Origin: Amoebophrya sp. A120
Lineage: Eukaryota > Protista > Dinoflagellata
Reading direction: 5' to 3'
DNA: 64,000 nucleotides
Assembly (NCBI GenBank): GCA_905178155.1
Contig: CAJINV010000002.1
Span: 840,780 to 904,779, forward strand
Part shown: positions 1 to 38,428 of the stretch, piece after piece
Layout of the letters: each line of letters begins with the position of its first letter
Numbering within the stretch: position 1 is the stretch's first letter
The notes under the pieces: generated by a model
Databases searched by the model: none
The model's input: the letters and a program-made list of their open reading frames with translations, nothing else
What the model was told of the DNA's origin: nothing
Position numbers and translations under genes: made by a program

Positions 1-3000
1 ACACCATCCTTTGGTCGTAGGTTATTGGATGGGGATTCAACCCCGGTAATCCCGGATTGAACACGTGTCCCTCTTCATCGTGTTTCAACTCTGATGGTTT
101 TTTCTTCTTGAGTTTTCTCTCTCTTTTCATCGGGAGAGCTTGTTTAGTATCGGGTTCTAACAGTTGCTGTTGCTCCTCTGGCGCGTTATTTTCGTCTTCA
201 AAGTCATCGTCTTCCTCAATGTCGATTTCCGCATCATTACCCGCTGCTTCGCCCTCTCCTTCGATGTAATTATCTGGCGGACCAATATTTCTATCACCGT
301 ATGCAGCTGCTGCATCATCGTCGTCACCCCCTTCGATGAAGTCCTCTTCTTCTAAAACCGTGTCGTCCACTGCAGCGGACTCCCCTTCCCCCTCCAGCAC
401 AGCTGGCCCTGCTGTTGCAGTAGTAGTTCTCACAGGTAAAGCGACCCCGTTGATCTGGGGTAAATCCAAACCGTTTTGCTTCACGACGTTGTCGAAGAGG
501 AAAAGTTCTTGCTCCTGTTCGGGGAACGAAGCTTTTGTTTTGGATCGTTCATCGGGGACGACTGATGCGCCGTCGACAAAGTTCTGCTGTTGTTCTTCAC
601 CATCCTCATCTTGTTCCCCATTGTCCTCGTCGTCCTCAAAGGCTAAACGGTGGCGGTGCTTTTCCTTCTTGACTGGAACCTCCTCGTTTTTCACATCAGC
701 CTCTACCTTGTCAACCTCAATCACAACGTCGGCAGGCAGAACTTCCTCCAAGACCGGGGGTGAGCCGATCTCGTCAAGAGCAGCTTGCTGCTGTTCCTGC
801 ATAGAAGTTGTGGGCGCTGGTATGTCAACGGAATCTGCTACAATCTGCACAGCTTATCAAGTGTAAAAATGTCTGGGTCTGGAAGAATGCGCGATTTGTC
901 ATGCAGATTTTCCATATCCCATGAGGTCTGGAATGCAGGACTTAGCATGACAGATTCTGCGCGATCTCTCTCATGCCAATCCTGCATGAGAAACTCCCTT
1001 CCGACTTGGTCAAAACTGGACGACTTTTGGTAATCATGCAATACAGATTTTTGCATGCTTCAGATTTCGCATGACAAGTTGCATTCTTCCAGACCCAGAC
1101 ATTTTTACATTTGATACAGCTTGTTCAGCCACGACCTGGTCGTCCATCGGGGTGGCGAAAACCAAATTGTTTATCACAAGAAAAAAGTGTTACAGTTACA
1201 CATTGTGTTGCAGGTCAAGCAAGACAGGCAAGCTCTGTCATGCCGGATATGCATAGGAGCCTCGTTTAATAGGTGTTTTCCCGTACTAGGATTTCTGCAT
1301 TACAAGTTTTCTCTCTCATGCAGAGAAATTTGTGTTGCTGAATTCACTACAAATGTGTAACTGTAACACTTTTTTCGTGGGATATTGTTCCCAACAGACT
1401 TGCTATTAGCCGGCGTGACAAAGTCCGCCGCACTCGCCGTACTGTTGTTCTGTTGTTGCGACACGACCGACACTTCATTCGCGGTTACAGAGACCATGTC
1501 GCCAGCACTCGGGAGGCTCTGCGACTGGTTATTTGTTACAGTACCATCCACCGCGTCCGGGGACTCGACGAAGGAGGACTCATAAGGGTTGTCGTTGTTC
1601 GCAGGTGGGTAGAGGTCGGAGGGGTTTTTTGTGGAAGAAAAGAGGATTTTCTCCGGGGAGACACTGTCGATTACGATGGCGGGGTTGGTGTTGCTGTTTT
1701 CTTGTACAGGTAGTTCTTCGGGAGCTGGAGTTGGACCTGTAGGTTCCTCTACTTGTGCAGCCGTTTGCAGCGCACCTGCATCAGCTTCTGCTTCCGCAGC
1801 AGCAGCAACAGGTGGCGGCGCAACAGCATCTCCCTCCATAACCGCGCGTTCTTCTGCAGTCGGTTCTGGGACCTGCTCGGCTGGCGGTACAACTACATCT
1901 TCCGTTTCACCGGTGCCGCTCCTGGCGCTTTGCTTGCTTCCCTCTTTGGTGTCTTCTGCTGGCGGAAGTAGGGTTTGTTCTGCGGGCAGCTCGGTTGTTG
2001 CTGCGGCTTCATCAACAGCTCCAGTAAAAGTATCGTCTACAGCAGGGAGCGACAGTTCTTCTGCAGCAGGAGCTGCTGTTTCTGCTTCGCCGACAGCGGG
2101 AGCAGCGGGCTCTGGTTGTTCTGCGGTAACAGGTGGCTCTTCAAAAACTGGTGGCTCAGCTGCACCCTCCGTTCCACCCTCCGTCGGCGCATCAGCATCT
2201 GCAGCCTCCGCTCCTCCGTCTGTCGGAACAGCTGGAGTCTCTTCTGCCCCCTCAGCTTCCCCAGGTGCTGGTGCAGGATCTCCAGGGGCAGCGGTGGTGC
2301 TTTCAACAGCATCAGCAGGAGTGGCTGCAGTGTCCGCAGGTGGAACTTCTTTTGGGGCGTCTTCACTTTCTACGACGGCTTCTGTTGCCGCTGAAACTCC
2401 AGGCTCTTCTTCCACTATCTCCTCCTCCACGACCACATCATCCCCACCGGCAGCTTCACCCTCCGCTTCCAAAACCTGCGGTTGTTCATGTTGACCAACT
2501 GGCATGACAGCTGGTATGTCTTGCAATACGGATTGTTCAACAGGAGCGGAGTTGTCCGGCTCTACTGGAGCGGCGTCTGGGTGTGCCGCGACGTCTTCTG
2601 CTGTTGCAGCTACTGCTCCATCAGGTGGGGCTGGAACTACGGGTGGCTGTGGCTCTACTAGAGCCGTTTCATCTACTTCCTTCGCCGGAGCAGCAGAAGC
2701 TGTAGCGACTGCAGTTTCATCATCCAGAGGGACAACCACTTCATCTGCAGAAACTGCAACTGCGGGCGCAGCACCAGGTGTGTCAGTTTCTGCTGCTACT
2801 GGAAGTGGCTCCGCTACAACTTCGTCTTTATTTGCCGGAGCTGGAGCAGCAGGTGCACCGGCTTCTGGGTCAACACCCGATGGTGCGTCTGGTGTTGCGG
2901 TTGCTTGTTCCTGTGGTACTTCTTCCACCGGAGCAGCAACAACAGGATCTTCTGCACCAGCTGCGACACTTGTAGCTGCTGCTGGAACTTCTCCTGTACT

Positions 3001-9555: not shown

Positions 9556-11177
9556 TCAATTATCTCTATCATCCCTGACTTCGTCGGGTACGTTCATTTT
9601 CCCCTGGTCCGCCCCTAAAGCGGCCAGCACGATACACAACAAAATCGCCAGTGTGATGAACGTATGAACTGCAAAACTATCGCACTCGTATAAATCAATG
9701 CATGACAAATTCCCTCAGCGCGAATAAAAATAAAAATTGTAATGCGGATTTTGTAATGCATGATCGCAATACGAGTACGATACTTTTGCAGACGATAGAA
9801 CGCACACAGCATCTGCACGCACTTATCACTCGCCGCTCCCCGCATCAACCCGCTTACCACATGTCTCGTCCGCTGGAGTGTGTTCTATCAAATGTAAAAA
9901 CGTCTGGGTCTGGAAGAGTTGGAACTTGTCATGCGAATTCTGGAATACGAATAGGCAGAAATTTGTATTGCATAAGCGCCAAAAGCTTCCCATTTGTTGC
10001 TATGCAAATAGGGAATTTCTCATGCGGAATAGACATCAGGAGGCCTGCGCAAAACCTGTAATGCTTCTGCGTGCATTAGAGACCAGCTGCGTGATGGTGA
10101 TCCAGAAGATGCATGACAAACTCCTGCAACCTTCCAGACCCAGACATTTTTGCATTTGATATGTTCTGCACGTCGTCCATCTCCTGCATCGTCCTTCCCA
10201 TCCGCTCCTCGTGTGCGTGCATCGTTTGTAACGACCTAGTCCCGATCTGCTCCGCGTCTGCGGCCATCCGGAGAATCCGCTTGAGCGACTCCTCTGTTCT
10301 GTCCTGCAATTTATCCCCCAGTTGTATCGCACGGTTGGATTGCTGTTGCAGCTGAAACTGGCTTGATCCTGCGCTGTTCATCTGCGGGTTTTCCGGATCA
10401 AATTCCGCCCTGACATCGTCTAACCTCCGCTGGTCGACTTGTTCCATGTTTTCGTATTTTCCGAGCAGGTTTTTCGATTTCTGCTGGTTCGTGGAGCGTT
10501 GGATCTCCTTTTTCCGGAACTCCAGCTCCGTTTGTTGCTTCTTCAGCTCGGAACGGAAGTCGGAGAGGGTCTGGATTTGTCGTTGTATTGGGGTTTTGCA
10601 TTACAGAAGTACGACTCTATCTCTAATCGTGTCCTGCATGACAAAAACCTAACAAGCTGCTGCTATGCATGACAAACAACACCTCAGAAAATACCTGTTC
10701 ATACCCGCCCCGAATGACCTCATCCTTGCAGGCGCGGAGCTCCAGCTGCAACGCTTCCAGCAAGTTACGAATATGATGTGCAAAAGCATTGTACCACTCG
10801 TAGCATTGGCGGTACTGCATGACAGATCGACTTCCGTATGCTAATCAGCATGACAATCTCGTCCACTTATTTCCATGCTAGTAGGCGTCAAACTTGCAAT
10901 GCAGTTCCCACTACTAGTAAGTACGATGCTTTTGCGATGCATAACGACACCTCGACACCAGCTGATTACACACGCGAATTTGCGCGGCGGCTTGTCGCGA
11001 CTTTTCCTGTTCCACGTTAGGGTTTTTTGAGGAGGAGCTGGAGCTCGAACTCCCGAAGAGACCACCGCCGCCGCTAGGTCCTTGTCCCTGCAACTGCTGG
11101 ATCGCTTTTTTCAAATCCTCCAGTGCGTCTTTTATCCCCTGCTCCTGGTTTTGCAGGGCTAATTTGGAGATCGACAT
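9556..11177 (-). CDS. Qb-SNARE, NPSN/Vti1-like, tail-anchored
   Basis: Spliced product has a helical N-terminus, a SNARE heptad (QDRTEESLKRILRMAADAEQIGTRSLQTMHAHEERMGRTMQEMDDVQN|TLQRTRHVV), an ASDKC motif resembling NPSN ATDKC, then a TM segment (MLCAF|ITLAILLCIVLAAL). Four introns; the one at ~10586-10692 is degenerate. Confidence 0.8.
9663..9797. mobile_element. Introner family C
   Basis: TIRs, direct repeat GAACG; interrupts the SNARE TM helix. Confidence 0.88.
9886..10161. mobile_element. Introner family A
   Basis: TIRs, direct repeat TGTTC. Confidence 0.9.
10772..10943. mobile_element. Introner family C
   Basis: TIRs, flanks ACGAA/ACGAC. Confidence 0.8.
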
Positions 11178-11734: not shown

Positions 11735-13939
11735 TCATTTCATCAAAACGTTTGACATCATCATATCTGCCGCACCTCCTCCTCCACCAGAAGAAGACGC
11801 GGAAAAACCACCAGCACTACTTCCGCCCATCATTCCCGCCCCTATCCTGGACTCCTCCCCCACAAAAGCGCTCAAATCCGTCTGCGCCGGCGGCCAGATC
11901 GGCATGCGAGGGTAGGTATCAAAAGTAAAAATGTCTGGGTCTGGAAACTTGTGATGCTGGGTGGCGTCTCATGATGACGCTACAAATGCTGGCTCAGCAT
12001 GACAAGTTTCTGCTCTCCTAGGTGTTGCCTATTCTGCATGACAAACTGCGTTTCTGCATCACAGAAAAACGGAGCTCTTGGGTAACATGCATGACAGATT
12101 TAAGAGTCATGCCAGACAAGCATGACAAACATGAATTCTTCCAGACCCAGACATTTTTACAGTTGATAGTAGGTGTTTGGCGGCGTGATGTAAAGCTGCC
12201 CCTGCTTGTTACCCGAACTCGAATTCATGTTGGACGCCAAAATCTGCCGTTCCATATATGCAATACAGATTTCCCGTACATGATGTACAAGATGCATCAC
12301 AAATTTCACCAATTTGGAGTGCCACACTTGTCATGCTAAACTAGGATCGAAACCCAAATTTGTCATGCAGAGGCCGCATTTGTACTACGTGTACGGGAGA
12401 TTTACTGTGGATACCAAATTCCCGCACAACACCCTGGCTTTCATTACCGGGGCGGAAGTCAGTAGCGCTTTGTTCCGAATAAATTCGTTTGACGGATCTT
12501 GGTTGTCTTCTGGTGTTGCAGAAGACGCAGCGGCTCCGGACACGTCGTCTCCTGGGGGTTCGGCTATCCCGCCTTCTTCTGGTGATAAGGTGCTCTCAGC
12601 GTCTTCTCCTGCGCCACCTCCAGTTGTTGTACCGTCTCCCTCTCCACCGCCTTCCTTCACCTTCGCCGCATCCTCCTCCGCTTCTCTATTCGCACTTCCA
12701 AAATCGGGTTCTACCTCCTTCTTCGTAACCAACAGCCAGTTCTTGAAGCGGTCGCAGGTTTTCCGCAAATTTTTCAGCAAATCCGAACTCTCGTACGACT
12801 TCTCATACTTCTCGTTCTCCGCCTGCCGGTAAGCTAAAACCGCGTTTTCCTTACAAGTATTAACTGCAAATAACGCATCGCACTCATATACAACATGCAT
12901 TACAAATTTCCTCAGCTGCATGAGAAAGATAATTTGTAATGCGGATTTACCTCAAGAAAAGATTTGTAATGCATGATTACAATTACAACGAGTACGATAT
13001 TTTTGCTGTTCATAGCAAGACTGTCCGATCTGCCAGTGTTTGGTCGCGATGGTTTCGTATCAAATGCAAAAGTGTCTGGATCTGGAAAGTTGGAACTTGT
13101 GATGCTGACTTTGGACTCTAAAAAAATCTGTATTGCATGACCAGCAAGAGGAGTCTAGTTTGTGCTACGCGGGGAGGGCGTTTGTCATGCGGAAATGGTA
13201 TCAAGAAAGTTGCCAAAAATCTGTGATGCTGGGTCATGCATTACAATCATCATGGGTCATGCCAGACAAGCATGACAAGCCTTCCATTTTTCCAGACCCA
13301 GACATTTTTGCATTTGATATTTCGAAATAGTTCGCCACTTGCGCGTACTTCGCCGCCTTCTGCGCAGCTTCGAAGGCGACGGACTGTTTTGTATCTGCTA
13401 GGTAAGTATCCTGTGCAAAAGTATCGTACTCGTAGTAATTGCAGTCATGCATTACAAAACTTTTTCTTAAGGTAAATCAGCATTACAAATTTTATTTCTC
13501 TTGCTGAAAGAATTTGCAATGCATTTATACGAATGCGATACTTTTGCAGTTCATAGTAAGACGGGTAGAGCGGTTCCGCTGCCTTCCAGGGGTCGGGGCC
13601 GGTGAGACCGGCGTACTCCTCTATCCTGAGTAAAAACGTACCCACACCATAGTCAAGATGGGGAATCGGCTAGACAAATCCACAAGTTTTGGCTGTTTTG
13701 CATGACAAATTTGCATTCGTAGTGTAGTGCGGTTTGAGCTAGCTCAGCAGCATCACAGATCTAGCATACCATGCTGATTGGAGCATGACAAATTGCAAAA
13801 CACGACTAGAAAATGCTTCTCATGGGGCTCCGCATGAGAAACATTTTCAGCATGCAGATTTGCATTACAACTCTGGTGTGGGTACGTTTTTACTGAGGAT
13901 ATCCTCCTTTTCGACATCGTCCGCCGGGGGCAGATACAT
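11735..13939 (-). CDS. Hypothetical protein, 7 exons
   Basis: MYLPPADDVEKE|EYAGLTGPDPW...SY|LADTKQ...YFE|TIATKHW...|KENAVLAYRQAENEK...GNL|ERQILAS...NTY|PRMPIWPP...LMK*; continuous frame after removal of six TIR elements. Confidence 0.7.
11917..12168. mobile_element. Introner family A
   Basis: TIRs, direct repeat GTAGG. Confidence 0.88.
12257..12413. mobile_element. Introner family F
   Basis: TIRs TATGCAATACAGATTTCCCGTAC / GTACGGGAGATTTACTGTGGATA; flanks CCATA/CCAAA; inverted sister copy at 25134. Confidence 0.85.
12858..13014. mobile_element. Introner family C
   Basis: TIRs, flanks ACAAG/GCAAG. Confidence 0.82.
13058..13319. mobile_element. Introner family A
   Basis: TIRs, direct repeat TTTCG. 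Confidence 0.9.
13407..13555. mobile_element. Introner family C
   Basis: TIRs, direct repeat GTAAG. Confidence 0.88.
13622..13901. mobile_element. Introner family E (TIR TATCCTGAGTAAAAACGTACCCACACCA)
   Basis: TIRs, direct repeat TCCTC; sisters at 40087 and 42651. Confidence 0.9.
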
Positions 13940-14536
13940 CTTGGGGTAAGTGTTTTGGTGTAACTTAAATTTTGGAAGTATAACAATACAAATTCACGCC
14001 TTTGATGTACCTTGTTGTCGTTGCTGCGCGCCACGAGTAATGAAGCCTTCTTGTTCTTCTAGTACTTCTAGTTCGACGACATTTTCGATCTTGTGCACAC
14101 GTTCTGCGTCGAAAACAGCGAAAAAAGATTGCAAATTCACATCTTCCAAAGGAAGGAAATCGAAATGTAGTTCTCTCGGGCGTCGACTTTTCCTTTTTAG
14201 ATCATCGAAGGCGAACGCGCTCGTTGTAGGCTCTCAGAGTAGCATGCGACGAGTCGAAACATGAATGGAGCGAACACGGAGGAAAAACAAAACTCCCGCT
14301 CGTGCGAGCCACAAAGTCAACCGGTTTATTTCTATTTCACACAATGACAAAAGTACACAGTGTCTAAAGAGAATATCGTGACAAGGGCAAAACATCGTTC
14401 TTCTGGAGTCCTTCCAATCTCCACAGAACTTCATCCCTAGGCAAATGATAATGATGTAAAAAAATGTATAGTGTAAGACTTCTCCAATTGTTCTTGTAAA
14501 ACGCTGATTCCTTGTCACCTTGAGGGTGCACTACTT

Positions 14537-17500
14537 TCACCACGCCCCCTGTCCGTGGAACCCCGATCCGCGCATGCCCCAACCATCATTGTGCGCTGCA
14601 CCCCAAGCCATGTCATTGTGCGTTGCCATCCAGGAATCGCGATACTGCCAGCCGGAGCTATCGCCTTCTCCTCCTTTTCCATACGAAGATATTCTGGCAG
14701 CGGCTCCTGTCGCACCACCGCCACCGTCGCCAGAAGGATGATAATATCCAGCTGAGGACACGGTTGTGTAGCTGTAGTTTTCCGTATAAATATCGCCTTT
14801 CCTCCCGCTCAATCGCTTCTTCTGTAGATTCTCCATCGAGGGGCGTGGAGGTGCAGCTCCGGCGAGCGTGTTGCTACGAGTTAGCTTTCCCCTTCCCTTT
14901 GACGTAGTAGCTGCTCCAGGAGCCGATGGCAACTGCAATTTCGGAACAGCAGCTGCACCACCAGCAGCTGATGAACTACCTCCATTTGCGCCCGACTGCC
15001 CCGCACTCCCACCCCGCCTCGGTGTTGTTGGAGTGATAGCCTGCTCACCACTCCCACCTCGCCTGGGTGTGGTTGGGGCGATTGGCAAGTTAGACTTCCG
15101 GGGCCCCGGGGAAGGAGTCTCACCTTGATTCCCGTAAGAACTACCGTATAATTGCTGCGCCGCGAGTCTTGGCGGCAACCTGACCATCGGCCCGTGATGC
15201 GCGTAAAAGGGGGCGGTTCTGGGTGTCGAATGTGGCGTCGCCGGCGGGGTAAATTGTTCGTCACTTTTTCTCCTTCCACTCAACCGAAGCGCGTTTGGTG
15301 CTAGCTCGTCAGACGGTCTCGGTGTTGCAGCAGCTCTTGGTGTCTTCATCTCCTCCGCCACTAATTTCGGATCCGTTTCGGCCGCTGGTTCCAAACACGC
15401 ACTCGGCCGTTGGTAGTAACCGGCGCGATAGTAGATGATAAATTCCGGTAATATTTGCGATGGATCGAACAGGACAAATTCCCGGAATTTCAATCTGATG
15501 TTGTCCGCCATCAATGTATTGAAACCCGCCTTTCCCATTTTCTCCGCGACCCCTTCTTCGATTTCGAAGTGGGGTGTCGAATTTTTACTGTCCCTTTTCT
15601 CGGCAGCATCAGCTGCGTCCTTCACCGCCTCATCGGAATTTGTGATGCAGTTAAAAGCCATATTGTCAATTTTTTCCAAATCCTCCGCCTTACACGCCAT
15701 TTTGTGGCTGACAAACACCTTGCCCAGCGCACTTCTGCACAACAGCTGCGTGCGGGGCTTCGTAATCGCGTTCATTTGCTCGGGGAAGTACAGCCTGGCC
15801 CCGGCGGAACAGTGCGATTTCTCGTTCACTGTGAGAAGTTGCTTGTCCACACGGGTGGGCTGGGTGTTGTAGTAGTATTCCGAAACGGTTTTAGCAATAC
15901 TTGTTTTGCGGCTGTTGGAGTTTGTGGTTGTGTTTGATTTGATGTTCATCCCGCCGCCGTCTTCTGACTCTGTAAAGGATTTGAAGTTGTTAACTCTGTC
16001 CATGGATTCCAACTCAACCAACTCAGCCGTATATCTGTCCGCTTTCGAACTCGCTTCTGCTAGGTAAATCGCCTTTCCAAACCGAGACCCGTGCTTCGAT
16101 TTCTCACTCGCTTCTGGTAGGTTGATATGAACTTCAAAAGCATCGCACTCGTACTAATTGCAAACATGCATGACAAATCGTCTTCCTAAAGTAAAACAGC
16201 ATTACGAATCCCATTTGTGATGCTGAGGGAAGTTGTGATGCTATTTATACGTAGCACGTTGCTTTTGCAGTTCATAGTTGAACCCCTTCTGCGCGATCTC
16301 CCACGCGTTTCTTTCCTTCGTACCGTGGAAAAGGAAGCATTCGTTGTATTCTTTGTAAACCGGGTAAACATGGTCGTCGACGTAATTACTTGAATATGAA
16401 TTGTAATTGTTCGAATTCGAATTATCTCCAAAAACCTCCGGCAGCGCCCTGGGCCAGATTTTATCCGGAGTGACTTTCTCCGTCATCACCTTATTCGTGT
16501 CGAACTGCGTTTTTTTCTCGACATTCGTGTACATTTTGTCAGAGATCCAGTCAAACTGTTCCCAGATTTTTTCCCTCGTATCCTCAAACAACTCAACCTG
16601 GTTCTCGGAATAGCACCAGTAAACCTTGTCCACAACGTAGAAATCTGGGACGTTTTCCTGTAACTTCACCGACCTGGGATGTTGCTCCTTTTTCAAATTC
16701 GCGAGAACCACATTTGTTGCGTTTTTCAACTTTTGTACCGCGGGACCTTGTTTATCCTTAATCTCATTCTTGACCTCGTCCTTCACCTTGATCGCCGCTG
16801 CCAAATTCGCGGTTTGCCGCTTCTTTTTCAGATTCGACTCCCACATTAACTCGTGTTGGGAATCCGTTTTCCGGTGGGTTTCAGTATGGAAGTGCACAAC
16901 TCCTGCTCCCCCTCATTTGTATGGCATGGCCAGCAATACAAACACCAGCACACGTGTATGCTGTGCATGACAAGTTCATGCGACGGATGCAGTGCTGTTT
17001 GCGCTTCCAGGTTTTGTCATGCAAACAGTGCCACAAGTCAGTGCAGCAACCGGATTTGGGATTTTGCATGACAAATGACGGGGAGGGGGAGTTGTGCACT
17101 CTCATATTCGTTTAAAAGCTTTTCGAAGACATTGATGACTTGTGCGTGCTTCGGGTTTTCTCTGTGGAAGGAGGTGTGGGTGAAAAACCCGATAGACTGT
17201 GGCTCATCTCGTACACTCCCATCAGTAGACCGGCTGCCGGGAGTTCTCGTACTGCTTGTGCTCCTCTTTGTCTTGGTAGAAGAAGTTGTACTTCTCGGTT
17301 TCTTGTTAGAAGTGTTACCGCCTGCAGGAGGTGGTGGACTACTTACTTTTGCGGCTTGTACTTTCGCGGAGGTTTTTTTCACAATATCGTTTTTCACCTG
17401 TTTCACCTTCTCGGTCACCTGTTTCACCTTCTCGGCTCTCGGTTGTTGCAAAGGTGCGGTCTTTTTGCTTTTGAAAAGCGAACTCCAAAAACCTTCGCCC

Positions 17501-18870
17501 TCGGGTTTCGGCTGTTTTCGTGCTAGCGGGAGAAGGCCCTTGACATCATAGGCACTAGAGCTGCCTGCAGTTTCTTCTTCTGGATGTAGTTGCGGAGCCA
17601 CGCGCACCTCCAAAACTCTATCGTCACTATCTACCCGGTACTCCACTGGCGTGCCTTTCTCCAAAATGAAAACGGAATGATTTTCATCTGTAGTCAGCTC
17701 GACCTTGGAGAATTGGAGGAGCTGCAGATCCTCATCGTGCAGCCCGTCGTGGCTTGCATGATCTTGATCTCCAGCAGGAGCACCTTCATGCACGATATCA
17801 CCATCCGCCCCCTTCTGGTAATACGCTACTTTCGCCCCGTGGTGATCACCGTCGATGGCTAAGGATTTTGATTCCTCCTCATGATGATGATGGTGGTCTT
17901 CCGGCTTCCTCTCGTGTCCGACCAAATCATGGTTTATCAGTTTGTTGACATCAATGTGTTTCAGCAAGCCAAATCCGGATTTGTCATCGTAGTTCACGAT
18001 CTCCCCCTTGTGGAACTTCTCATCTGGGTGGATTAAATCTTCCTCGTCCGATAAAGCTTTCGCCGTGTCTTGCTGTACTGCGACTGCCCCTGCTGGACCG
18101 GTTTCTATTGCGAGACTCGCTTGTAGGCGGGTTATAACCTCGTCGTTCCCTGCGGGAGCTACCTGTTGATCACCATCACCTTCGTGAAGAGGACCAACAT
18201 CTTCCCCCTCCGTAATCCCGATCTCCACGAGAGAGTCATGCAAATACTTCGGATGACTACTCGGTAAAAAACTCTTCGACAGCGTTAGCTTCTTTTCCTT
18301 CTCGAGCTCGTTGAACTGCGCTATCTGGTCATAATACTCCTTTTTCACCCCGTGCATAACACTCACCGCCTCGCCCTCCGGGTGGGTTATATCTGAGAGA
18401 GCGTCAGCGTTTTTTGACAGCAGAGAACCGTGTCCTTGACCGGGTTCTTCTTTGAAGGGAGCTATTGTGGCGTTGAGTGGGGAGATCGACGCGGCAGACG
18501 ATTCGGCTTCATCACCGTCGCTGTCGGTAAAAGCCAACGCCTCAAACAACCCCTGATGGTCGTAATTCTGCGGTTTTCTCGTCTGATGCGCGAATTTCAC
18601 CACCTCGTCATCTGGTATAGTTGCGTCCGAAACTGCGCCAGTATCGCTAGCGACGATCTTCTCGCCCCGTTGCATCAAAACTACGGAGGATTCGCTGCCT
18701 GAAACCACGGAGCTTTTACTAGCTGTATTAGCGTCTTTTGAAAACAACACGGGCGGTAGTTGTTTCGCTTTAACCGGTGGGGGTCCTTTCCGCGGTCGCG
18801 GTGGTGGGTGGTAGTTGAAGCGAAAAGCGCGCCGGCGGCCCTCGGGAAATGGGAGAAACTCTTCCGACAT
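14537..18870 (-). CDS. PARP-family (ARTD-type) ADP-ribosyltransferase with long disordered flanks
   Basis: Three exons. Catalytic motifs NECFLFHGT, GSRFGKAIYLAEASSKADRY, QLLCRSALG and FREFVLFDPSQILPEFIIYY give the H-Y-E triad. Confidence 0.85.
16126..16276. mobile_element. Introner family C
   Basis: TIRs, direct repeat GTTGA; lies inside the PARP catalytic domain. Confidence 0.88.
16885..17106. mobile_element. Introner family D (TIR TATxxxAGTGCACAACTCCCCCTC...CATTTGT)
   Basis: TIRs, flanks TTCAG/TTCGT; sister at 36325. Confidence 0.85.
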
Positions 18871-21800
18871 TGTTTTGGGGGTAATTGTGTAGTTTGCGAT
18901 TAGCTTTAAACTAATTGGTGCTGGTGCTGGAAGTTGCTGTTGACGTACTCAAATAGGATTAGGATTATTGATGTAGTGCTTGTGCTTGTCAAGGTGAGAG
19001 GACACAAACGAGGCCAGCGCTCAGGGTATGAGCGTCTACCTTCGCGACCATAAAACCAAAATGGGAATAAAGTGGCATAGCAGCATGGGAATGCGCCGTT
19101 ACCTTGACTTTCTGAAGTGCACCTGGCGTACTCAATCAATTCATTCACTGTGGTGCGGAGATGTCGCCGTGAGTTGATGCTGATGGATCGTCTCCATGGT
19201 ACGACAAACGAAAGAGTTTTTATTTCCGGAGGAATTTGCACGACAAAAAATAAAAAACGAGCGATAGTATGGTACTGACAGAAGTTCATGGCCTACGAAA
19301 GCAGGACCGACAGAAGAAGAGACGTATTCACTTTGGTTGCAGATCAGAGATCAGAGGTGTCAGCCCACGTGACGCCGTCACGCAAGCTGGGCTCAACGCA
19401 GCGGTCAGGCAATCCTAACCACCACGTCGGCCGTAAAATAGATTTGCGTTTGTCAGAAGTTTGGAGCTGATGACACAGAAATAACTAAACCCTTTTGATG
19501 CAGACTAGAGAAGCTAAAAACTAGGCTCCGAAGAGCTGAGCTGGAATGGGCGAGAAGACTATGCTCCGAGGAGCTACTTTGGAAAGGTTTTAAAAAAACT
19601 ATGCTCCGAGGAGCGGGCCTGGGGGAGCTAAAACAAAACTAAGCTTTCAGATTTTGGATTTCAAACAAAATAAAACTACACGACAATAGGTCAGAATAAT
19701 GGTCTTCGTCCTGCGAAAACCCTCAAACCGGCTACAAGTCGTGACTTATCGAGATCGCCACTTTTCAAACTACGCAGGATTAGTCTTTTCGCAGAAAAAG
19801 AGCCCAGGAACTTTCCCGAACTAAACAAAGCTGCAGTTTTAGATGGGGACAAGGCGATACATGTGAGATCATGGAAAACAACAGCTTTTTTGGATTTTCG
19901 CTACCAATAATGAGTCCGCTTTTCCATCATAGCATCGGGACAAGGCGAGCTTGATGGATCCACAGAGCTTGTAAGAGTTTAACTACGAGGTGCGAAGCCT
20001 TTAACACGTACTGCGGTCCTTTCCCGACGATCAAGTTTAAAACTCTCACTTCTGTAATTACGTTCGTGTAATAGCATCGCAAGTTCATAAACAACGGAGC
20101 TACCAAGAGAGACAAAACACGACGTCGCTCGTCTCACATCAGCACACCATCGTGTTGCGGACTAGCAAAGCTCCCAACTGAGAAAAAGAAAGGTAAAAGA
20201 AAAAAGAAAGCCAAACTCAGATAGTTTGACTTTTACCTTGCTGTAAAGAGAAAGAAAAACTGCACTCCTAGAGAGTTACGGTTTTTTTTTTGTGTTTTTT
20301 ATTTTCTGGTAGTCGATATCGATAAACTTCTTCTTCGAGCAAAAAATAAGGTCCTAAACCCGCCGACCTGAATCCACGATTTTCCCAAATCGCCCATACA
20401 AAAAACGCCAGAATCACCGAAATAGCCCGGCGGACCAAGGACAGCAAAGAGAACTCTCTCGCGTTACATCGATAAACAGGTCGCCCGGTCTACATGGTAA
20501 CAATTCCACGACATTATTACACAATTTGGAAGCTTAATAGTTCACCCGAGTTGGTTATGAAAATAGGTCGAACGAAATTTCTGCTTCTAGAACTACTTTT
20601 TTCCGGTGTCAAAAACAGAGATGAACAAGTCCTCTTATTCAAAAACTGAAGTCCCCCAGGCAGGTTAACAACGAACGCAGCAAAAATCTACTTCGCAACA
20701 GCTACAGCCCTACCACCTGCACCAGCTTTCTTCTTTTTCGGCTTTCGCATCCAACGAAAACCGAATTGGTGTGCGTGAGCAGGACCGACAGAAGAAGAGA
20801 CGTATTCACTTTGGTTGCAGCACGAAAACCGAACTTCTTTCTTTTTCAACAGACAGCAAAACTGGAAACTTGGGAAGCCATAAACTACTTGAAAAACCTG
20901 GGAAGCCTTAAACTATTTGAAATACCTGGGTAGCCTTAAAACCTTTGAGTACTTTGGGGACAGTAAAAAAATGAATCAAGTAATAGATTGATGGTAGTGA
21001 GAAGTGAATGACTAGACAACATAGCGCAATACTACACAACTTGGGGGCTTAACAGATCAGATTTTAGGTCGGGAGGATCTTATTATTAGCAATCTTGATT
21101 AGCGCCGCGCAGATCAGGACTAGATCACGCGAAAGAAATAAAATGTAGATCAAGCCGCGTAGAGCACTAAAAAAGCATCTCTGATTTTTGCAAATATTCA
21201 TTTTTAGAGGGGGACAAGGCGAGTAGGAAAAGAAACAGGAAAATTGGCAGACTTCCTGCTTTTTCCTTGCCTTGTAAAGTCTAAATCGACCGATATAGGT
21301 GGGGACAAGTCGTGCTGTATGAGTTAGTAAAGATACAGAAAAGCGAAGTCCTAAACCCGCCGACCTGAGTGCACGACTTTTACCTAACCTTCCATAAAAA
21401 AAACGTCAGAGTCACCGATTTAGCCCGGCGGAACAAGGACAGCATTTAGAACTCTCTCGCGTCACAACGATACCCAGGTCTAAACGAATAACATGAAGAG
21501 CGTAAATATTGCAAAGAGGGCATGGTTGGTCGCTCCAACTGGCTCTCTTCACCATATCGCACCACGAGCTCCATTTAAACAAGTGAAAAAAGAAGAGAAA
21601 AAAGGGAAGGAAAGGCAAGCACTACGCGCGCTTGGCTTTTAGTACACTAGTTCTACTGTAACTGCTCTTTTTTTTTTGTGTGTTTTTAGTTTTTTTTCGC
21701 TATAATAACTTCTTCCTTTCAACTAACGCTCACTACTACTTTCGGCTCACTCTACGAGCTGGCTCCTCTTACGTAAACAACGGGAGCCCTCGGCTTTCTG

Positions 21801-21906
21801 CGTGACTTCGTAGCGGCAATAAACGGGGCCGGGTCGACAAGTATCTGCGTCTTCAAAGCAATCGCTGCCTCAAGCGCTAGCGACTTGAAGGTCTACGAAA
21901 GCAGGA

Positions 21907-22057
21907 CCGACGGAAGAGGAGACGTATTCACTTTGGTTGCAGCACAGAAGAAGAGACGTATTCACTTTGGTTACAGAAGAAGAGACGTATTCACTTTGGT
22001 TACAGAAGAAGAGACGTATTCACTTTGGTTACAGAAGAAGAGACGTATTCACTTGGT
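21907..22057 (+). repeat. Tandem array, 29-bp unit ACAGAAGAAGAGACGTATTCACTTTGGTT, 5 copies of the core
   Basis: Directly visible; no unique spacers between units. Confidence 0.9.
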
Positions 22058-22944
22058 GTGCGGCATTCACTTGATTTTGTTTTTATCGGAATTTTTATCC
22101 TCATCGCCATTTTGGATTTGGCAGCTCCCTGGTTCGTAATAAATTGCACGAGATCAAGACAGCTGAAGCCTTCAAAGAGAAATTAAAGCGAAAACTCTGA
22201 AAATGGATCTGGCATTGTAAACGGAGAATGGGCCTGACGGTGTAACGATTATAACAAATACCACATAGGCAAAAACCCCACCTATCCACAGGAAATCAAC
22301 TTTGAATTGCAGCGCCAGACCTGCTGCTAGTGAGTCGGTAACAAGCGTCGAATGCGCGTCAAGCTTATCAACTGTGGCTGAGCAAAAGACGACATCAACA
22401 GGTTGATCATGTGTTTGTTCAAAATCGGGGCAAGTTCAAGATCTTCGTGGCGGATCATCACGATCATCATCATCTTCGTTGGTAAAGGTGCAACTAGATG
22501 TGCCTGTGGGATGATCACTCAGGCACACAGGCAGAGTAAAAGCTACTAGAAGCGATCTTCATCCCTTACATAAGACCTGAAGGGTTCTTTCCTCCAACAT
22601 CTTATTCAAAACTGACACTTCCTTGAAGCTGAAGCATACTCAGGATCCACATCTTCTCAAACCCGTTCGTGATCGTATGTTAGCGCTTTAGGAAAGGGCA
22701 AAGACACCGTCCAGCGCGCATGCAAAAATAAAAAAATACGGCACGAAAGAAACAAGCATTGGCGATCTTTCTTTGTGTAATTCGATAGAAAATGCCTCAC
22801 GCCTTAGCGAACGAAGCTTCTTCACCCGCAACGAGATGTGGTTTTTTGGATTCGGAAGAAGCTTACTCTGCCAAGCTAGAGCAGGTAGAAAGTTAGGTTT
22901 GTCATGCACGACTACCTACGAGTACGGTACTGTTGCATTCCATA

Positions 22945-23208
22945 CTCGAGAAACTGAAACAACTTCTCGCTGTCGTGCTCCGCATTGGACCCAGAAGTTT
23001 CGACCAAAACGCCGAACTTCGGCTTTCCGTTTCCCTCCGGCAGTAAAAACTCCGGTATGGCGGGCAGGTCCGGCAAATTCTTGCTCAAATTCTCCGTGCA
23101 TTCAGCATCCCAAAATTCGTAGGCGGAGAGGATCTCGCCGAGCTCCGCGCGGGCTTTTTGGAAAAGCGAAACGACGTCATCATAGTGGTCGACGGACAGC
23201 AGGAGCAC
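22945..23208 (-). pseudogene. D2HGDH: Isolated fragment of D-2-hydroxyglutarate dehydrogenase (FAD-linked oxidase C-terminal domain)
   Basis: ARAELGEILSAYEFWD and VLVETSGSNAEHDSEKLFQFLE match D2HGDH/DLD2 family motifs; no flanking exons found. Confidence 0.7.
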
Positions 23209-25019
23209 GTGTTTGGCGTTACATTTTGGTTGAAGAACGAAGAAGAAGAGACGTATTCACTTTGGTTGCAGCACGAAAACCGAATTGGTGGCGCTTGGAC
23301 TTGGAAGGATCGAGGCGCTTAGATAGGTGGTGATTGGCGTTGCCTCTTACCCCAACCCTCGATAGATAGGAGCGGTTTTACATCTATCTTTTCGCAACCT
23401 GGCACACGACTAGGAGGGGGCAGTGTGGTCGCCTCTCCGACGTGAGAACACGCCATTACCCTAAACCCGGTGCTATATACAAGTTTTCTACAAGATGATC
23501 TGTACATTTATTTTTTTTTTGCTCCTACCGACGCTACTATGTATGTAAAGCCCTAAACCCGTGCTAATTACCTTCGTTAACTTTAGGGCATGCCTGATTC
23601 CCGCGCTGCAGAGTTGGAGCATGTGGAAAGACTTTTTTTTGGATCTACAGGACCGATTTCTTTCTTTGTTTTCGCACCACGGCGTCAGTGGTTCTGTTAG
23701 ACTTGTACTAAAGTTTGTATGATCCCTTCGGCTACTGAACAACAAAAACTATACTACTACCCCTGCATTTGATCAACTCTTGCACGCGTCGGGTCATACA
23801 TAGTTATTCTAGTGCCATGGGTCTCCACCGTAATCCATGGTCTTCGTCTCGCCGCATACAAAAAGAATATCACCAACATCTAGAAAAGTTCGTCCCTGAT
23901 CATCCATCCCCCACCGCAGTCCCCGCACGCTTGTTCAGCTTATCCGGCCGCTGCCGCCGCTTGCCGCACTATGCACAGCCTGTTGCTTGCTCATGTAGTC
24001 ATGACCTATCGCGGGATCACACGGGCGCAGGGGCAGTGCAATTAGGTGGTGATTGGCGTTGCCTCTTACTCAATTCCCCGATAGACAGGAGCGGGCTTAC
24101 ATCTTTTCGCAGCCTGGCACACGACTAGAAAAGAGCAGTGTGGTCGCCTCTCTGACGTGAAAACACGCCTTTTCCCTAAACCCTGTGCTATATACGAGTT
24201 TCTACAAGAATGATCTGTAAATTAGTTTCTACCGACGCCACTACATATGTAAAAACCCTAAACCCGTGCTGTTTACACTTTAATTTTTATGACATGCAGA
24301 CTCTCCCGCGCAGCAGTGCTGTTCTACGAAGACTAAATTTACACCGAGGGCACGGAACTATCTACACTTTTTACCACGGCGTCTGTGGTTTTTTTTAGGT
24401 GGTAGCTTTTTTTTTCCCTCGCTTCTGCCGAACTTCAACTTTTTTGAAAAGCGCTATGATCTACTACCCCTGCGTATCTTCAGCACCTGCTGTCGTCGGG
24501 AGAAGAGACGTATTCACTTTGGTTGCAGCACGAAAACCGAATTGGTGTGCGCGTGGTCAGGTTTGAGGCAGCCTACGAAAAAGCAGAAGAAGGAGTTGCA
24601 CGAAACAGACAGTAGTTTTGAAAATAAACCGATCAAGCAACAACGTCCTGGTGCAGTCGAGAGACTTGCGTCAAATTCGCAGAACCACCCGGCGGACCGA
24701 AGTGGGTGCACCCGTCATATCTTCATGTGCATGGGTGCGCGGCCCTGCTCCGAAAATCACACACCCAGTGATGGATACATCAAAATTTCAATCGTCTAGC
24801 ATTATCGTCTTATTAACAGAGACTGGTTGCAAAAATCGTGAAACAGTAGTTTTTGTCTTTTCAGCAGGCGAATGTTTGTATTCTCAAACGATGTCAAATG
24901 TTTTACAAAAGTTCAATATGAAGAAATTGAAATTTGTGTTGTATCAAAATTAGTTTACCAGACAAAGACGTTTTTGTTTTCGACCAGAAGTGGTAATATT
25001 ATACCTGCATGCCTCTATT

Positions 25020-28000
25020 TCAATACGTCCCCGAAGACCGTGGTCCCGCGCAGCAGTTCCCCAGCCCAAAATTCATCGCCGCGCCGATCCTTTCCATAAA
25101 GCAGACGAAGGAGTATGTCATGTGGTCGTCCTCTATCCACAGTAAATTTCCCGTGCACGACGTACAAATGCGGTCTCTGCATGACAAAACGAGGCTTCGA
25201 TCCTGGTTTAGCATGACAAGTGTCAGCACACTCCAACTTGGTGAAATTTGTGACGCATCTTGTACATGTACGGAAAATTTGTATTGCATATCCTCCGCAA
25301 CAGGGACTCGACCACCCGGAGTTCTTGGTGTGGTCCCGTCGTAGTTCAGATAGGAGTGGGAGCCGTCGCGTTCATGCCGTCCTCTTGCGTGTCTAGCATG
25401 CGACGTTCCACTTGTGCGACTGCGACCTCCTCTCGCGCTTGTCCTCGGTCCGCTTCTGCCCGCCTCAACATCATCCGCGTCCGTGTCTTCCGAGTCCAGT
25501 CGATGATGCACGGGTAGAACCATCGTATCCTCCGCCAACGGCTGGAATTTGTAACACCTCACCGGGCAGTTTTTAATCACCATGTCCTCCGCCTTCAGCC
25601 CGGTTAAGTCCATTAAATGCAGTAGCCGGTCCCTTTGGGGACTGCCGTTTTTGTTGTCGTGTTCATCGATCATCTCCGAGAAGGATTTTTTGGTCGGTGT
25701 GGCAGTCCAATCTGTAATAGTATTCGTCTGTGACTTTCTCGCTTTGGCCAAAATCGCTTTTGAAGGGGACGAAATCGGAGCACGAGCTGCTGTTGCACCA
25801 TTACGACCGGAAGTAGAAGAAGAAGACGCGGGCGTCGTCGCAGTTGTGGACGATAATTGCCAAGTACTAGAAGAAGACGAAGAGGCACCGGAAGGCGAAC
25901 TAGATGATCCAGCACCAATTTGATGTTCATGTTTTTCCTTGGAAGGCCGCGAAAGATGAGACAACACCAGCTCTTCTTCCTCCTGTTCCAAAATCCAATC
26001 TTGCACCAACCAGTGGCCAATCAAACTATTCGGCACCGGTTTTCTACACAGTGGACAGGGGACTCGTTTCCTGGACGCAGAAATTTTCGCCAGAACGTCT
26101 TCCAATTTCTTAGGATGCTTCGTACAGGCGGAGGACCGGAAGGTCGGGAGATTGTTGGAAACCTTCTCCACGATGGAATGGATCAGGTTTTCTAAAAACC
26201 CAGGCTCGACCAGGAATTGCGGCATCCGGTCGTCATCGGTAAGGTCGGGGTCGTCGAACGTCATGTGCGTATCAACCGCTTTTGTATGCATGTTGCAAAT
26301 TAATATATCGATCTGGATCTTCTGAACTAAACCTGTGATGATGAGTTCTCATGCGGATGATTGCAATACTTCTACTTGCCATGGCGGTCAAGCATGACAA
26401 CTTCTTTCTGAAACGCTTTCTGATGCCTAGCACGAGTTGCGCGTTCCGTTTTTCTATGACAAAAAAGCTGCTCATACGTCACTCTTGCTGCTCATGCAAC
26501 ACAGATTTCAATTTCTCAGGAACTGCAAGTATCCCTTATGCGCAGTACAAGTTCCGTTCTTCCAGAACCAGACATATTTCTTGCACTTGATATTCTAACG
26601 CCCGAATCCTGCGCTCTTGCTCCGTGGGTGCAGTCGCGGCTCCAGAATGCCCGCTGGCACGTTCTTGTCTCGGCAGAAGCTGGATCCGAAGAAGCAACTC
26701 CCCCAGCAGTTGATGGTAGTCTCGATTTCTCTGCCGTTTCGCTAGCGTTTGCCGGACTCTTTCTTCCAAATCCAATCTCGCGCTAGCATTATCACCACTA
26801 GTCGCCGCGCCGCTCGGCGGTCCCCCGCCCCACATCAGGTTCAGAACGGTCCGAAACGCCGAAGATCCCGCGAAGATGCTGGTCTCATTCGATGTTCTAC
26901 TGGTTCCCTGATCCGTGAATTCGATATCATCGTTGTTCCGGTCCCAACTCCCCGGACCGTACAACATTTCATGCCTCCGCCGCTCGTAGTCGAGGATCCT
27001 GGGGATTGGTACGGTGGCTAAAATTGTCTGCGTTCTCCTTGTTGGGAAACCGCGTTCATGCGACTCCTCGGACGGTGAGGGTGTTCTTCTGTGTCGAGGC
27101 CTTCTTGTTCCAGAGCCATGAAGATCTTCCCCGTTAATATCGTCCCTTCTCCTCGCCGTGAAAAACGGGTTGTCATACCGGTCGATTTCCGCTAGATTTT
27201 GATTTTCACCACCCCGCAGCTGCTGCACCGACCGGGGGTCGATAACAGAGACCAAAAGCATCATATGGTCGTGAATTTGTCTCGCTGGGTGGAGGATAGC
27301 GTCTTCAACATCATCTGCTTCATCCCGGTGTGCTGTCATTGTTCCAGTTGTCGCGTTGATGTACCGGGCCGCGCCTAAAAGATTCGCCAACCGCTGCTCC
27401 CGGTCGTTTCGATCGGTAATTTGTGTTGCGGATAATCGTTGTTCTGCTTCTTGTCGTTCTTCTTCGTCCCTTCGCTGGTTCTGCGCTGCGAGTTGTTGCC
27501 GCTGCCGCCTTCGCCATCCGCTCGTGCGAGCACCACTACTTCGTGGCGGGAATAATGACCCTCCTCGGTCGTTTTGGTCTCTCCGACGTCGTCTTTCCGG
27601 TATCGGGAGAACTAAATCCTCATTATCCTGCTGGTCGTAGGGTCTGGCCAAGGCTGCTCGATGTCCCCGTGGCGGACCGCTGGTTGGCGTTCCGACATTG
27701 TGGTCCATTTGACCGTTTGATGTTCTCGCAGTGGAGATGCGCATCCTTTGTCCGTTAATGAACTCCTCGTAAATCGCTTCCATGTCATCATGTGCGGAAT
27801 TCACCTGTGTTTGCTGCACTGCCAGGCTCGGATCCCGCTCGCAGTGCTCCACCAACTGGCGGAGACAGGATAGGTGAAAGCGATGCTGGCAGACGGGGAG
27901 CTCACCCCAGGCGGTGCGTTTGTTCCTGCTGGATGAGAGAAAAGCGTCGTCTGCTGCTGCACCAGCTGCAGTGCAGGCGCAAAACGACATTGCGGCAGCA

Positions 28001-28803
28001 GGGTTAGATTTCTCGTCGAAGCCCTCAAGGCAGAGTGCGCAGAAGAATTTATTGGAATCGATGTCCGGGCTGTTGTCGTCGTCCATGTACTCTTCTTCAA
28101 CATCGGTGCTGACCACATGAGCTCCAGAGCACCTCCTGCTGCCTGTTTCTTGAGGCGGTGGATTATCGCCCTCTATGCTTTTCCAGCTGGGGCAACTTGC
28201 CAGGCAGGTTCGCAGGCTCTCTCCGCTGCGGTCCAACAAAGCTTGCTGTGCACGCTCGTGCAACTCGCTCAAAGTGGCACTGCTGGAGCTCGATGATGAT
28301 GATCCGGTCGTGCTGGTGGACCCCAAGGCAGGATGTCTGCTTGTCTGTCGTGTAGACAAAACCGTCGCTTCACGAAGCCCAGTCGTGGAACTGGAGGATC
28401 CACCATACCCAACAGTTGGTCCACCTCCGCGTGGTCCGCCTACCCCGAACGGCTCGTGGCTAGACGAAGGTCCGCTATGAACGTTCCCGTGAAGATTACG
28501 GCTCGAACTTCCGCTCGTGATGGACGTCGGTTGCACGCCCGAGGACCGTGGTAGTCCTCCGGAAGGCTGCTCGGCTGATGAGCCGCTCGATGTTGGATTA
28601 ACAACATCCACTCTCGGTGTGCCAATGTAGAAGTTTTCAGTCTGCCTCCGACGCTGTTCACCGTTTGATGTGCGACGGCCCTTTCTTTTTGACAGAGACA
28701 AACCAGCAACACGTTGCACGTTCCCAATGTCGTGGGTAGACCAAGGCCGTAAAGAGATCGTCCAAGCAGCGATAGACACGCACGACGACAACAGACGAGA
28801 CAT
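25020..28803 (-). CDS. Large RING-finger-type protein (split RING-H2-like), 3 exons
   Basis: CALC...CQHRFHLSC in exon 1 and CPLCR in exon 2; frame restored across elements 26285-26592 and 25134-25290; hydrophobic N-terminus. Confidence 0.7.
25134..25290. mobile_element. Introner family F, opposite orientation to the 12257 copy
   Basis: TIRs, direct repeat TCCTC. Confidence 0.88.
26285..26592. mobile_element. Diverged family A-like introner
   Basis: Degenerate TIRs (…CTTCCAGAACCAGACATATTT…TTGATA) and degenerate flanks; frame RALE|AVDTH restored. Confidence 0.65.
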
Positions 28804-38343: not shown

Positions 38344-38428
38344 CTTCAGTTGCAGCCCCAACAGCGTCTCTAACTCCGCGGCTTTCTGCTTGGCACCCTG
38401 CCTACTCGGAATGCTTGTCGTTGGCGAG

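What the first reader, a model, noticed from the sequence alone, without database searches (positions are those of the whole stretch)
12257..25290. The same intron sequence sits in either orientation relative to transcription
Seen: family F copy 25134-25290 is the reverse complement of 12257-12413, yet both host genes are on the minus strand and both frames are restored on removal. Family A does the same (3494-3759 versus 9886-10161). Spliceosomal introns are polar (donor, branch point, acceptor). Inference: a symmetric recognition mechanism (RNA hairpin of the TIRs, a tRNA/IRE1-like cut-and-ligate route, or DNA-level excision like ciliate IESs). Caveat: the 25134 copy plus TSD is 162 nt and stop-free, so that one could be read through.
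Basis: partly seen in the sequence, partly recalled or inferred. Interest (0 to 1): 0.85.

Follow-up and report, generated by a model that had tools for sequence, protein, structure and literature searches.

The report
Two-way transposon introns in Amoebophrya
In the marine parasite Amoebophrya, an already described kind of transposon-like intron with mirror-image ends sits in genes either way round and is missing from the gene models in both directions, likely because an RNA-splicing machine meets the same end signals whichever way the element landed.

Summary
Observation largely confirmed. The window is Amoebophrya sp. A120. The elements are its published introner elements (TAT…ATA inverted ends, 5-nt duplication; Farhat 2021). 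The F copies are about 86% alike in opposite orientation, not exact reverse complements. Both hosts are on the minus strand. Public proteins drop element plus one duplication at 13 of 13 sites, including 12257, 25134 and 3494. RNA-type contigs skip 9886 and 12257, while the DNA run keeps them. For 25134, RNA support is indirect: word share 0.81–0.82, against 0.79 expected if removed and 0.92 if kept. Orientation to the transcript is random (family A 34:32). Canonical sites are not enriched (6 of 122; antisense 5). The inference of a symmetric mechanism is not forced, because inverted ends give a polar machine the same signals both ways. Copies decay with transcript polarity (p 0.005–0.04, post hoc, small n), and the F ends are not predicted to pair. 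I favour a U1-less spliceosome variant (0.5) over a nuclease/ligase route (0.27) or DNA excision (0.06). Earlier scan notes report both-orientation introners in other protists.

The parts
12257..12413 (.). Family F introner copy (TAT…ATA ends); duplication 12252-12256 / 12414-12418, 4 of 5 alike; host on minus strand
   Evidence: absent from deposited protein P0002 (162 nt); RNA-type contig X3 record 14 begins its piece at 12414 with 281 letters before it
25134..25290 (.). Family F copy in the opposite orientation; perfect 5-nt duplication; 162 nt and stop-free if retained; a GA-AG register is possible here by chance of the duplication
   Evidence: absent from P0001; word shares; junction not seen in reads
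3494..3759 (.). Family A copy, orientation 1
   Evidence: absent from P0003 (271 nt); no RNA piece across it among those shown
9886..10161 (.). Family A copy, orientation 2
   Evidence: X5 record 18 skips it: 83 letters between pieces equal exon 9798-9880
855..1116 (.). Family A copy, orientation 1
13058..13319 (.). Family A copy, orientation 2
11917..12168 (.). Family A' copy
9663..9797 (.). Family B copy, reverse orientation
   Evidence: skipped in X5 record 18
4740..4897 (.). Family B copy, reverse orientation
13407..13555 (.). Family B copy, forward orientation
10772..10943 (.). Family B copy, forward; imperfect duplication, position 1 taken from the upstream copy
5146..5310 (.). Family B-like copy; imperfect duplication, position 2 from upstream and position 5 from downstream copy
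   Evidence: annotation
12858..13014 (.). Element with imperfect duplication; position 5 from the downstream copy
   Evidence: RNA piece ends at 12853
26285..26592 (.). Worn element in the same gene as 25134; duplication 3 of 5 alike, position 3 from the upstream copy
   Evidence: 313 nt removed, annotation
10571..10694 (-). GT-AG intron beginning GTAT that carries three copies of the elements' internal motif
   Evidence: 72 letters between RNA pieces fit exon 10695-10766; motif count
11738..13939 (-). Host gene of the 12257 copy (305 aa, six elements)
25020..28803 (-). Host gene of the 25134 copy (1102 aa, CAD7931887.1)

Best explanation
These are the introner elements of Amoebophrya A120, short repeats with inverted ends and a 5-nt duplication that lie in coding sequence in both orientations, likely spread as non-autonomous DNA transposons and likely cut out of the pre-mRNA by a modified, U1-independent spliceosome that would read signals carried in the inverted ends. 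Shown: both orientations occur, at about 1:1 against the inferred transcript strand. Element plus exactly one duplication is absent from gene models in both orientations and from RNA-type contigs at five sites. The DNA run keeps the elements. Inferred: because both ends carry the same terminal sequence, either orientation offers TAT[CG]…AAA at the 5' end and TTT…[GC]ATA at the 3' end. The cut lies inside the duplication, after its 3rd or 4th base if one register holds for all sites. With the cut after base 4 the donor reads N-T-A-T, a GTAT donor with a free first base. The first A of the terminal ATA would then be a branch A or ruler point 7 nt before the 3' cut, with no AG needed. End-to-end pairing would help most families but is not predicted for family F. 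Donor role, branch role and spliceosome involvement are untested hypotheses.
For: Orientation: family A 34 same / 32 opposite, all families 77 / 81, over 74 of 136 loci with a strand call plus the window. The element-level tally is 28 / 27. Random orientation excludes spread by reverse splicing into sense RNA and fits DNA transposition (inference). Exact removal at 13 of 13 annotated sites; the annotation was built from transcript alignments (PMC7789003 section 25). RNA-type contigs. Polarity 1: terminal-triplet changes fall at 5' position 3 (6) against positions 1-2 (1), and at 3' positions 1-2 (6) against position 3 (1). Fisher p = 0.029, 0.005 and 0.041 at three strand thresholds. Polarity 2: the intact 30-nt family A end is the transcript's 5' end in 54 of 86 matches (p=0.023; 42 of 63 and 70 of 115 at other thresholds). 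This holds for both physical ends (left 21/34 vs 12/32, right 17/32 vs 5/34). Control: interior substitutions are strand-symmetric (A>G 80, T>C 84). U2, U4, U5, U6 and 83 of 89 spliceosomal proteins are present and U1 was not found (PMC7789003 section 10). A GT-AG intron starting GTAT shares the internal motif. Precedent: spliceosomal removal of transposon-derived non-canonical introns in Fritillaria (passages of PMC11282704).
Against: No conserved first or last intron dinucleotide, which spliceosomes normally need (established knowledge). A plain count of terminal deviations showed no polarity (5 against 4). The position split was chosen after seeing those data, rests on 14 changes, and the two polarity tests share loci. 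Host strands outside the window come from my codon model, not from RNA. YTRAY occurs in 0 of 75 family A/A' copies at -50..-10, so the branch idea rests only on the terminal A. Four of the five GTAT donors are hand-read: a frame test left 126 solutions, and a de novo intron search was noise. The cut register rests on five sites, three from annotation only (5146, 26285 and, in part, 12257), and also fits a central, symmetric crossover. Polarity fits any RNA enzyme, not only a spliceosome. Farhat et al. found no cognate transposase in A120.
Confidence: 0.5

Rival explanations
1. A spliceosome-independent RNA route: a protein endonuclease recognises the end sequences or the end-to-end helix, cuts twice inside the duplication, and a ligase joins the exons (tRNA-, IRE1- or euglenid-like).
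For: No dinucleotide rule and free duplication sequence. Ends are predicted to pair in most copies: positions 9-13 with P at least 0.5 in 70 of 73. U1 is missing (PMC7789003). Euglenid non-conventional introns with inverted ends leave full-length circles (passages of PMC11282704). Polar decay is compatible with any RNA enzyme.
Against: F ends are not predicted to pair (0.02-0.06 for positions 1-3, 0.05-0.22 for 9-13; folds z -1.8 and -1.2), yet both are dropped. No G-U over A-C excess (106:118). Sense and antisense pairing are equal (p 0.21-0.72). The terminal triplet is under-paired in 17 of 73. No nuclease or ligase could be looked for, as no genome was held.
Confidence: 0.27
2. DNA-level excision (IES-like) in the expressing stage, repaired through the 5-nt duplication.
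For: Explains orientation independence and exact restoration directly. The known duplication crossovers (positions 1-3 upstream, 5 downstream) fit a central crossover. The internal motif repeats at 31-33 bp, about three helical turns (124 spacings at 31-33), which suggests double-stranded DNA binding.
Against: DNA run X1 contigs cross exon-element borders at depth 41-45, the same as element-free DNA. Element sequence is present in the RNA-type runs. Decay is polar to transcription. The motif spacing is equally explained by transposition. The joint table was swamped (15 of 647 rows shown) and contigs drop rare forms, so a minor or stage-specific empty form is not excluded.
Confidence: 0.06
3. 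Intron definition is set on DNA or chromatin: a factor bound to the internal GCAT.ACA motifs (either strand) marks both introner and GT-AG introns and hands them co-transcriptionally to a permissive splicing machine.
For: Motif density 15.9 per kb in elements, 0.31 per kb in coding exons, 0 in six hand-chosen gene-poor stretches of about 14.5 kb. It is present in the GT-AG intron 10571-10694 and between the exons of gene 29940-31990, in both directions.
Against: The same pattern follows if those GT-AG introns are worn introners. Motif direction near the 3' end differs by family (A sense, B and F antisense). It does not by itself set the cut position.
Confidence: 0.12
4. Each copy uses its own chance canonical or dinoflagellate-type sites, or is read through (ordinary splicing).
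For: 25134 allows a GA-AG register and is stop-free (sequence). 12257 and 5146 gain a GT start from the last duplication base.
Against: GT-AG is possible in only 6 of 122 (antisense 5). AG at duplication positions 1-2, 2-3, 3-4 and 4-5 occurs in 15, 6, 12 and 8 of 122. Removal length is element plus 5 at 13 of 13 sites.
Confidence: 0.05

Closest known systems
Introner elements (IEs) among the non-canonical introns of Amoebophrya sp. A120 (Farhat et al. 2021, PMC7789003; sections 10, 11, 12, 16, 25 read, other passages by search, supplement part 2 of 5, figures not visible)
   Same: Same organism. Inverted repeat starting TAT, seven looser bases, then an A run; 3-5 nt direct repeat; repeated families; no splice-site dinucleotide rule; hairpin model and missing U1 already discussed.
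   Different: The text I saw does not report element orientation against the transcript ('orientation' hits shown concern gene blocks, 'strand' 0), nor a cut register inside the repeat, nor polar decay. It leaves the splicing mechanism open.
TIR/TSD introners of algae and dinoflagellates (Gozashti 2022 PMC9860276 and Gozashti 2025 PMC12130899, passages; Huff 2016 not held, recalled only)
   Same: Non-autonomous DNA-transposon anatomy; clean mRNA restoration. The 2022 methods allow for opposite-orientation insertions. The 2025 paper lists diverse TIR introners in A120.
   Different: Those use canonical sites carried or co-opted from the duplication; here the duplication shows no such sites.
Non-canonical MITE-derived introns of Fritillaria borealis (review passages, PMC11282704; three passages of PMC13326754)
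   Same: Transposon origin, inverted ends, duplications, non-GT-AG borders, removal attributed to an adapted spliceosome.
   Different: Fritillaria keeps preferred dinucleotides (AG-AC, AG-AT) and has U1; A120 elements show none at the cut.
Euglenid non-conventional introns (review passages, PMC11282704)
   Same: Inverted ends that can pair, duplication-like repeats, unknown mechanism.
   Different: Euglenid introns show a pyrimidine|purine border and full-length circles; neither was tested or seen here, and family F lacks a predicted terminal helix.
Ciliate IESs (established knowledge; passage in bioRxiv 10.64898/2026.07.09.736142)
   Same: Transposon-derived, orientation-free, precise removal leaving one repeat.
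   Different: IESs are absent from somatic DNA; these are present in the DNA run at single-copy depth.

Membership tests
Amoebophrya A120 introner elements | Inverted repeat starting TAT, seven looser bases, then at least three A | tested here: met
   Logos of 141 elements, (the terminal TAT was a search criterion there); F copies carry a worn A run
Amoebophrya A120 introner elements | 3-5 nt direct repeat at the exon-intron border | tested here: met
   210 of 242 elements have a perfect 5-mer; the finder demanded at least 4 of 5
Amoebophrya A120 introner elements | Repeated families | tested here: met
Amoebophrya A120 introner elements | Removed from transcripts without GT-AG | tested here: met
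   the RNA label of runs X3 and X5 is a tool guess, backed by near-zero depth on gene-poor DNA and removal of a GT-AG intron in the same record
MITE / TIR DNA transposon | TIRs, constant-length TSD, no coding capacity, random orientation | tested here: met
MITE / TIR DNA transposon | Cognate transposase and empty-site alleles | not testable with these tools
   no genome held; fetched loci do not overlap the window
U2-type spliceosomal intron | GT/GC-AG borders | tested here: not met
   7 of 122 possible, antisense 7
U2-type spliceosomal intron | Branch point and lariat | tested here: inconclusive
   no internal YTRAY in family A; terminal A retained at 3' ends; lariats not testable
tRNA-type / IRE1-type / euglenid hairpin intron | Conserved RNA helix that fixes the cuts | tested here: inconclusive
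   most copies pair, F does not; no wobble bias
tRNA-type / IRE1-type / euglenid hairpin intron | Cyclic-phosphate ends, RtcB/Trl1 ligation or full-length circles | not testable with these tools
   needs bench work
Ciliate-type IES | Absent from the DNA of the expressing nucleus | tested here: not met
   present at single-copy depth in DNA run X1; life stage of that run unknown
Group I/II or other Rfam RNA | Match to a curated RNA family | tested here: not met
   0 matches at gathering score in the window

The most novel reading that the evidence does not exclude
Amoebophrya A120 has a splicing system with no dinucleotide rule that reads a transposon's own terminal repeat twice: as an N-TAT donor at one end and as a branch or ruler A a fixed 6-7 nt before the cut at the other. 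This would make every insertion of the element, either way round and at any site, an instantly perfect intron. The machine would be a U1-less spliceosome or a new nuclease-ligase.
Probability: 0.35. Interest if true: 0.85.

Novelty: already known. Interest (0 to 1): 0.47.

Why it matters
The elements are published, but how tens of thousands of them are removed without U1 or splice-site dinucleotides is stated as open (PMC7789003). Three points make it testable. (1) Random orientation excludes spread by reverse splicing and places the signals in the inverted ends. (2) Imperfect duplications map the cut to the base from existing RNA-seq. (3) Transcript-polar decay names candidate donor and branch positions. 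Opposite-orientation pairs such as the F copies are ready-made reporters. If the fixed-register model holds, it explains how a transposon can fill coding sequence at little cost.

Tried and rejected
Strict terminal hairpin as ruler: not predicted for F, and no wobble or sense bias. GCATGAC as branch point: it lies in sense direction near the 3' end in A families (61 of 75) but antisense in B (17 of 19) and F (2 of 2), so rejected. Canonical sites co-opted from the duplication: rejected. A simple count of 5' against 3' terminal deviations showed no difference. Transcription-linked mutation bias as cause of the polarity: not seen in interiors, 99 of 125 elements used. De novo search for GT-AG introns: noise (part 3); frame test of hand-read introns not discriminating. 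Run X11 laid 2 reads and was uninformative; the DNA run swamped the joint table. The first word-share estimate used a wrong second intron and was replaced. A near-length protein search found nothing. Pfam found no family for P0001. No whole genome, no more DNA behind the loci, no match in viral contigs. Huff 2016 is not held. No junction table exists for 24700-44600, so the 25134 junction and the position-4 sites in that stretch remain unseen in reads.
Full report
Observation. 12257-12413 and the reverse complement of 25134-25290 align end to end at about 86% (137 of 160 columns). With 30 nt stripped from each end they still score 137 reversed against 23 forward. 3494-3759 and 9886-10161 are more distant but also reversed (290 against 207). 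Each starts TAT, ends ATA and is flanked by a 5-nt duplication, imperfect at 12257. I count 43 such elements in the window, 8,810 nt (32 by the strict finder, the rest added). Families A, A', B and F occur in both orientations. Removing element plus one duplication gives long open frames on the minus strand, and the codon model called 36 of 39 window elements confidently, all minus.

Identity. The protein of the 25134 host is CAD7931887.1 of Amoebophrya sp. A120. Farhat et al. 2021 (PMC7789003; sections 10, 11, 12, 16, 25 read) describe A120 introner elements with an inverted repeat starting TAT, seven looser bases and an A run, with 3-5 nt direct repeats. They count 29,850 repeated introns, find no U1 and leave the mechanism open. 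The elements are therefore known.

Are both orientations removed? Three deposited proteins map to the minus strand with 13 gaps inside the window, each equal to an element plus 5 nt, including 25134 (162), 12257 (162) and 3494 (271). These models were built from transcript alignments, so they are second-hand RNA evidence. Directly, contigs of runs X3 and X5 were laid on 700-20600. Their RNA label is a guess by the tool, but they have near-zero depth on gene-poor DNA. X5 record 18 covers 9421-9657, 10162-10570 and 10944-11409. The 83 and 72 letters between the pieces equal exons 9798-9880 and 10695-10766, so elements 9663, 9886 and 10772 and a GT-AG intron are all skipped in one record; 9663 and 10772 are family B in opposite orientations. 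X3 record 14 starts its piece at 12414 with 281 letters before it. A difference at 11871 has the same depth, which fits only if both 12257 and 11917 are missing (inference from piece arithmetic, the joints themselves were not among the 15 of 647 rows shown). For 25134, read-through is possible on paper (162 nt, no stop). Four RNA-type runs of one sample hold 0.81-0.82 of 164 sampled words, against 0.79 expected if removed and 0.92 if kept (p 0.5 and 2e-5). A low-coverage gap elsewhere could mimic this, and the junction was not seen in reads. DNA run X1 crosses exon-element borders at depth 41-45, like element-free DNA.

Orientation at larger scale. They do not overlap the window, and I do not know whether they are the same strain. 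With host strands from a codon model (74 of 136 loci called; agreement with element-level of 96, not independent), family A is 34 same / 32 opposite and all families 77 / 81. Random orientation fits DNA transposition and excludes reverse splicing into sense RNA (inference).

Signals. On the transcript strand the 5' end and the reverse complement of the 3' end have the same logo (141 of 249 elements). The duplication looks like ordinary coding sequence: a GT-AG register exists in 6 of 122, against 5 on the antisense strand. So neither orientation uses canonical sites, but either orientation shows the same termini, and a polar machine is not excluded.

Hairpin. Positions 9-13 are predicted to pair in 70 of 73 sampled copies, but the terminal triplet is under-paired in 17 of 73, and sense and antisense do not differ. 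G-U and A-C mismatches are 106:118. Both F copies lack a predicted terminal helix. Pairing may help, but it is not shown to set the cut.

Cut register. Imperfect duplications show which copy each base comes from. Positions 1-3 come from the upstream copy (10772 RNA piece; 12257 RNA piece and protein; 5146 and 26285 proteins), and position 5 from the downstream copy (5146 protein; RNA piece ending at 12853). If one register holds, the cut follows base 3 or 4. A central symmetric crossover fits these data too; position 4 decides and is untested.

Polarity. A plain count of terminal deviations gave 5 against 4. Split by position (post hoc), 5' ends change at position 3 (6) and rarely at 1-2 (1), while 3' ends change at 1-2 (6) and rarely at 3 (1): p 0.029, 0.005 and 0.041 at three thresholds, 165-235 elements. 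The intact family A end is the 5' end in 54 of 86 matches (p 0.023), for both physical ends. Private substitutions in the terminal 30 nt are 50/2337 at 5' and 74/2331 at 3' (p 0.03; overlapping data). Interior substitutions are strand-symmetric. Removal of the deviant copies is not shown. Taken at face value, selection acts on the RNA and keeps T-A at the 5' end and the first A of ATA at the 3' end. With a cut after base 4 these are donor +2/+3 and an A 7 nt before the 3' cut. The one RNA-supported GT-AG intron starts GTAT; four more GTAT donors are hand-read and unconfirmed. Fixed short branch-to-acceptor distances in Giardia, Trichomonas and tiny ciliate introns are recalled, not checked.

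Verdict on mechanism. U1-independent spliceosome variant reading the inverted ends 0.5; nuclease plus ligase 0.27; DNA- or chromatin-set intron marking 0.12; DNA excision 0.06; chance canonical sites or read-through 0.05.

Literature. Nine searches found no statement on element orientation in Amoebophrya. 'Introner + both orientations + terminal inverted repeats + splice' gave 0 papers, and 'introner + opposite orientation + spliced' gave only Farhat, where the phrase concerns genes. I saw passages only of PMC9860276 (its methods allow opposite-orientation insertion), PMC12130899, PMC11282704, PMC11453091, PMC12005148, PMC12621601, PMC13149111, PMC13326754 and bioRxiv 10.64898/2026.07.09.736142. 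Huff 2016 is not held; Roy 2023 and Henriet 2019 were seen only as citations. Farhat's figures 3, 4 and S19-S25 and supplement parts 1 and 3-5 (searched by term, not read) may bear on orientation and register. Earlier scan notes record both-orientation introners in other protists; I did not check them.

Score. The object is already known, and both-way insertion is expected of a TIR element. The additions are a count of orientations, a bracket on the cut and a hint of transcript polarity, which make a stated open question testable with existing data. Interest 0.47.

Noticed in passing
window 10571-10694 and 29940-31990: The elements' internal motif GCA[TA][GCT]ACA also lies in a GT-AG intron and between the exons of a small multi-exon gene, in both directions; it is nearly absent from exons and gene-poor DNA. 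These may be worn introners or the motif may be a general intron mark.
   Followed up: partly
all elements: Tandem motifs are spaced 31, 32, 33 or 39 bp (49, 39, 36, 43 cases); 31-33 bp is about three helical turns, suggesting phased DNA binding.
   Followed up: partly
window 5700-9400, 19000-22850, 54300-61500 (parts): No motif hits in about 14.5 kb of hand-chosen gene-poor DNA, while elements fill about 14% of the window: insertion or retention looks tied to coding sequence.
   Followed up: partly
window 11871: One RNA-type contig (depth 8) reads G where the DNA has C; editing, allele or error not decided.
   Followed up: no
window 19310-24548: A different repeat (family D10), nine copies with a 29-nt tandem run at 21910-22083; one copy abuts a 114-aa frame (22912-23256) that resembles a D-2-hydroxyglutarate dehydrogenase C-terminal part (recalled, not tested).
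   Followed up: no
window 51400-54300: A minus-strand gene resembling radical-SAM TYW1 (recalled, not tested) is interrupted by about eight elements within 2.5 kb.
   Followed up: no
window 14540-18948: Minus-strand gene with a PARP catalytic domain fragment (Pfam E 9e-8), split by elements 16126 and 16885.
   Followed up: partly
window 61742-62321 and 63632-63993: Arrays of 21/42-nt units with internal palindromes, twice, each preceded by a shared stretch (61570s and 63500s).
   Followed up: no
window 30895-31140: A motif-bearing interruption with non-canonical, worn ends inside gene 29940-31990; possibly an old element still removed.
   Followed up: no
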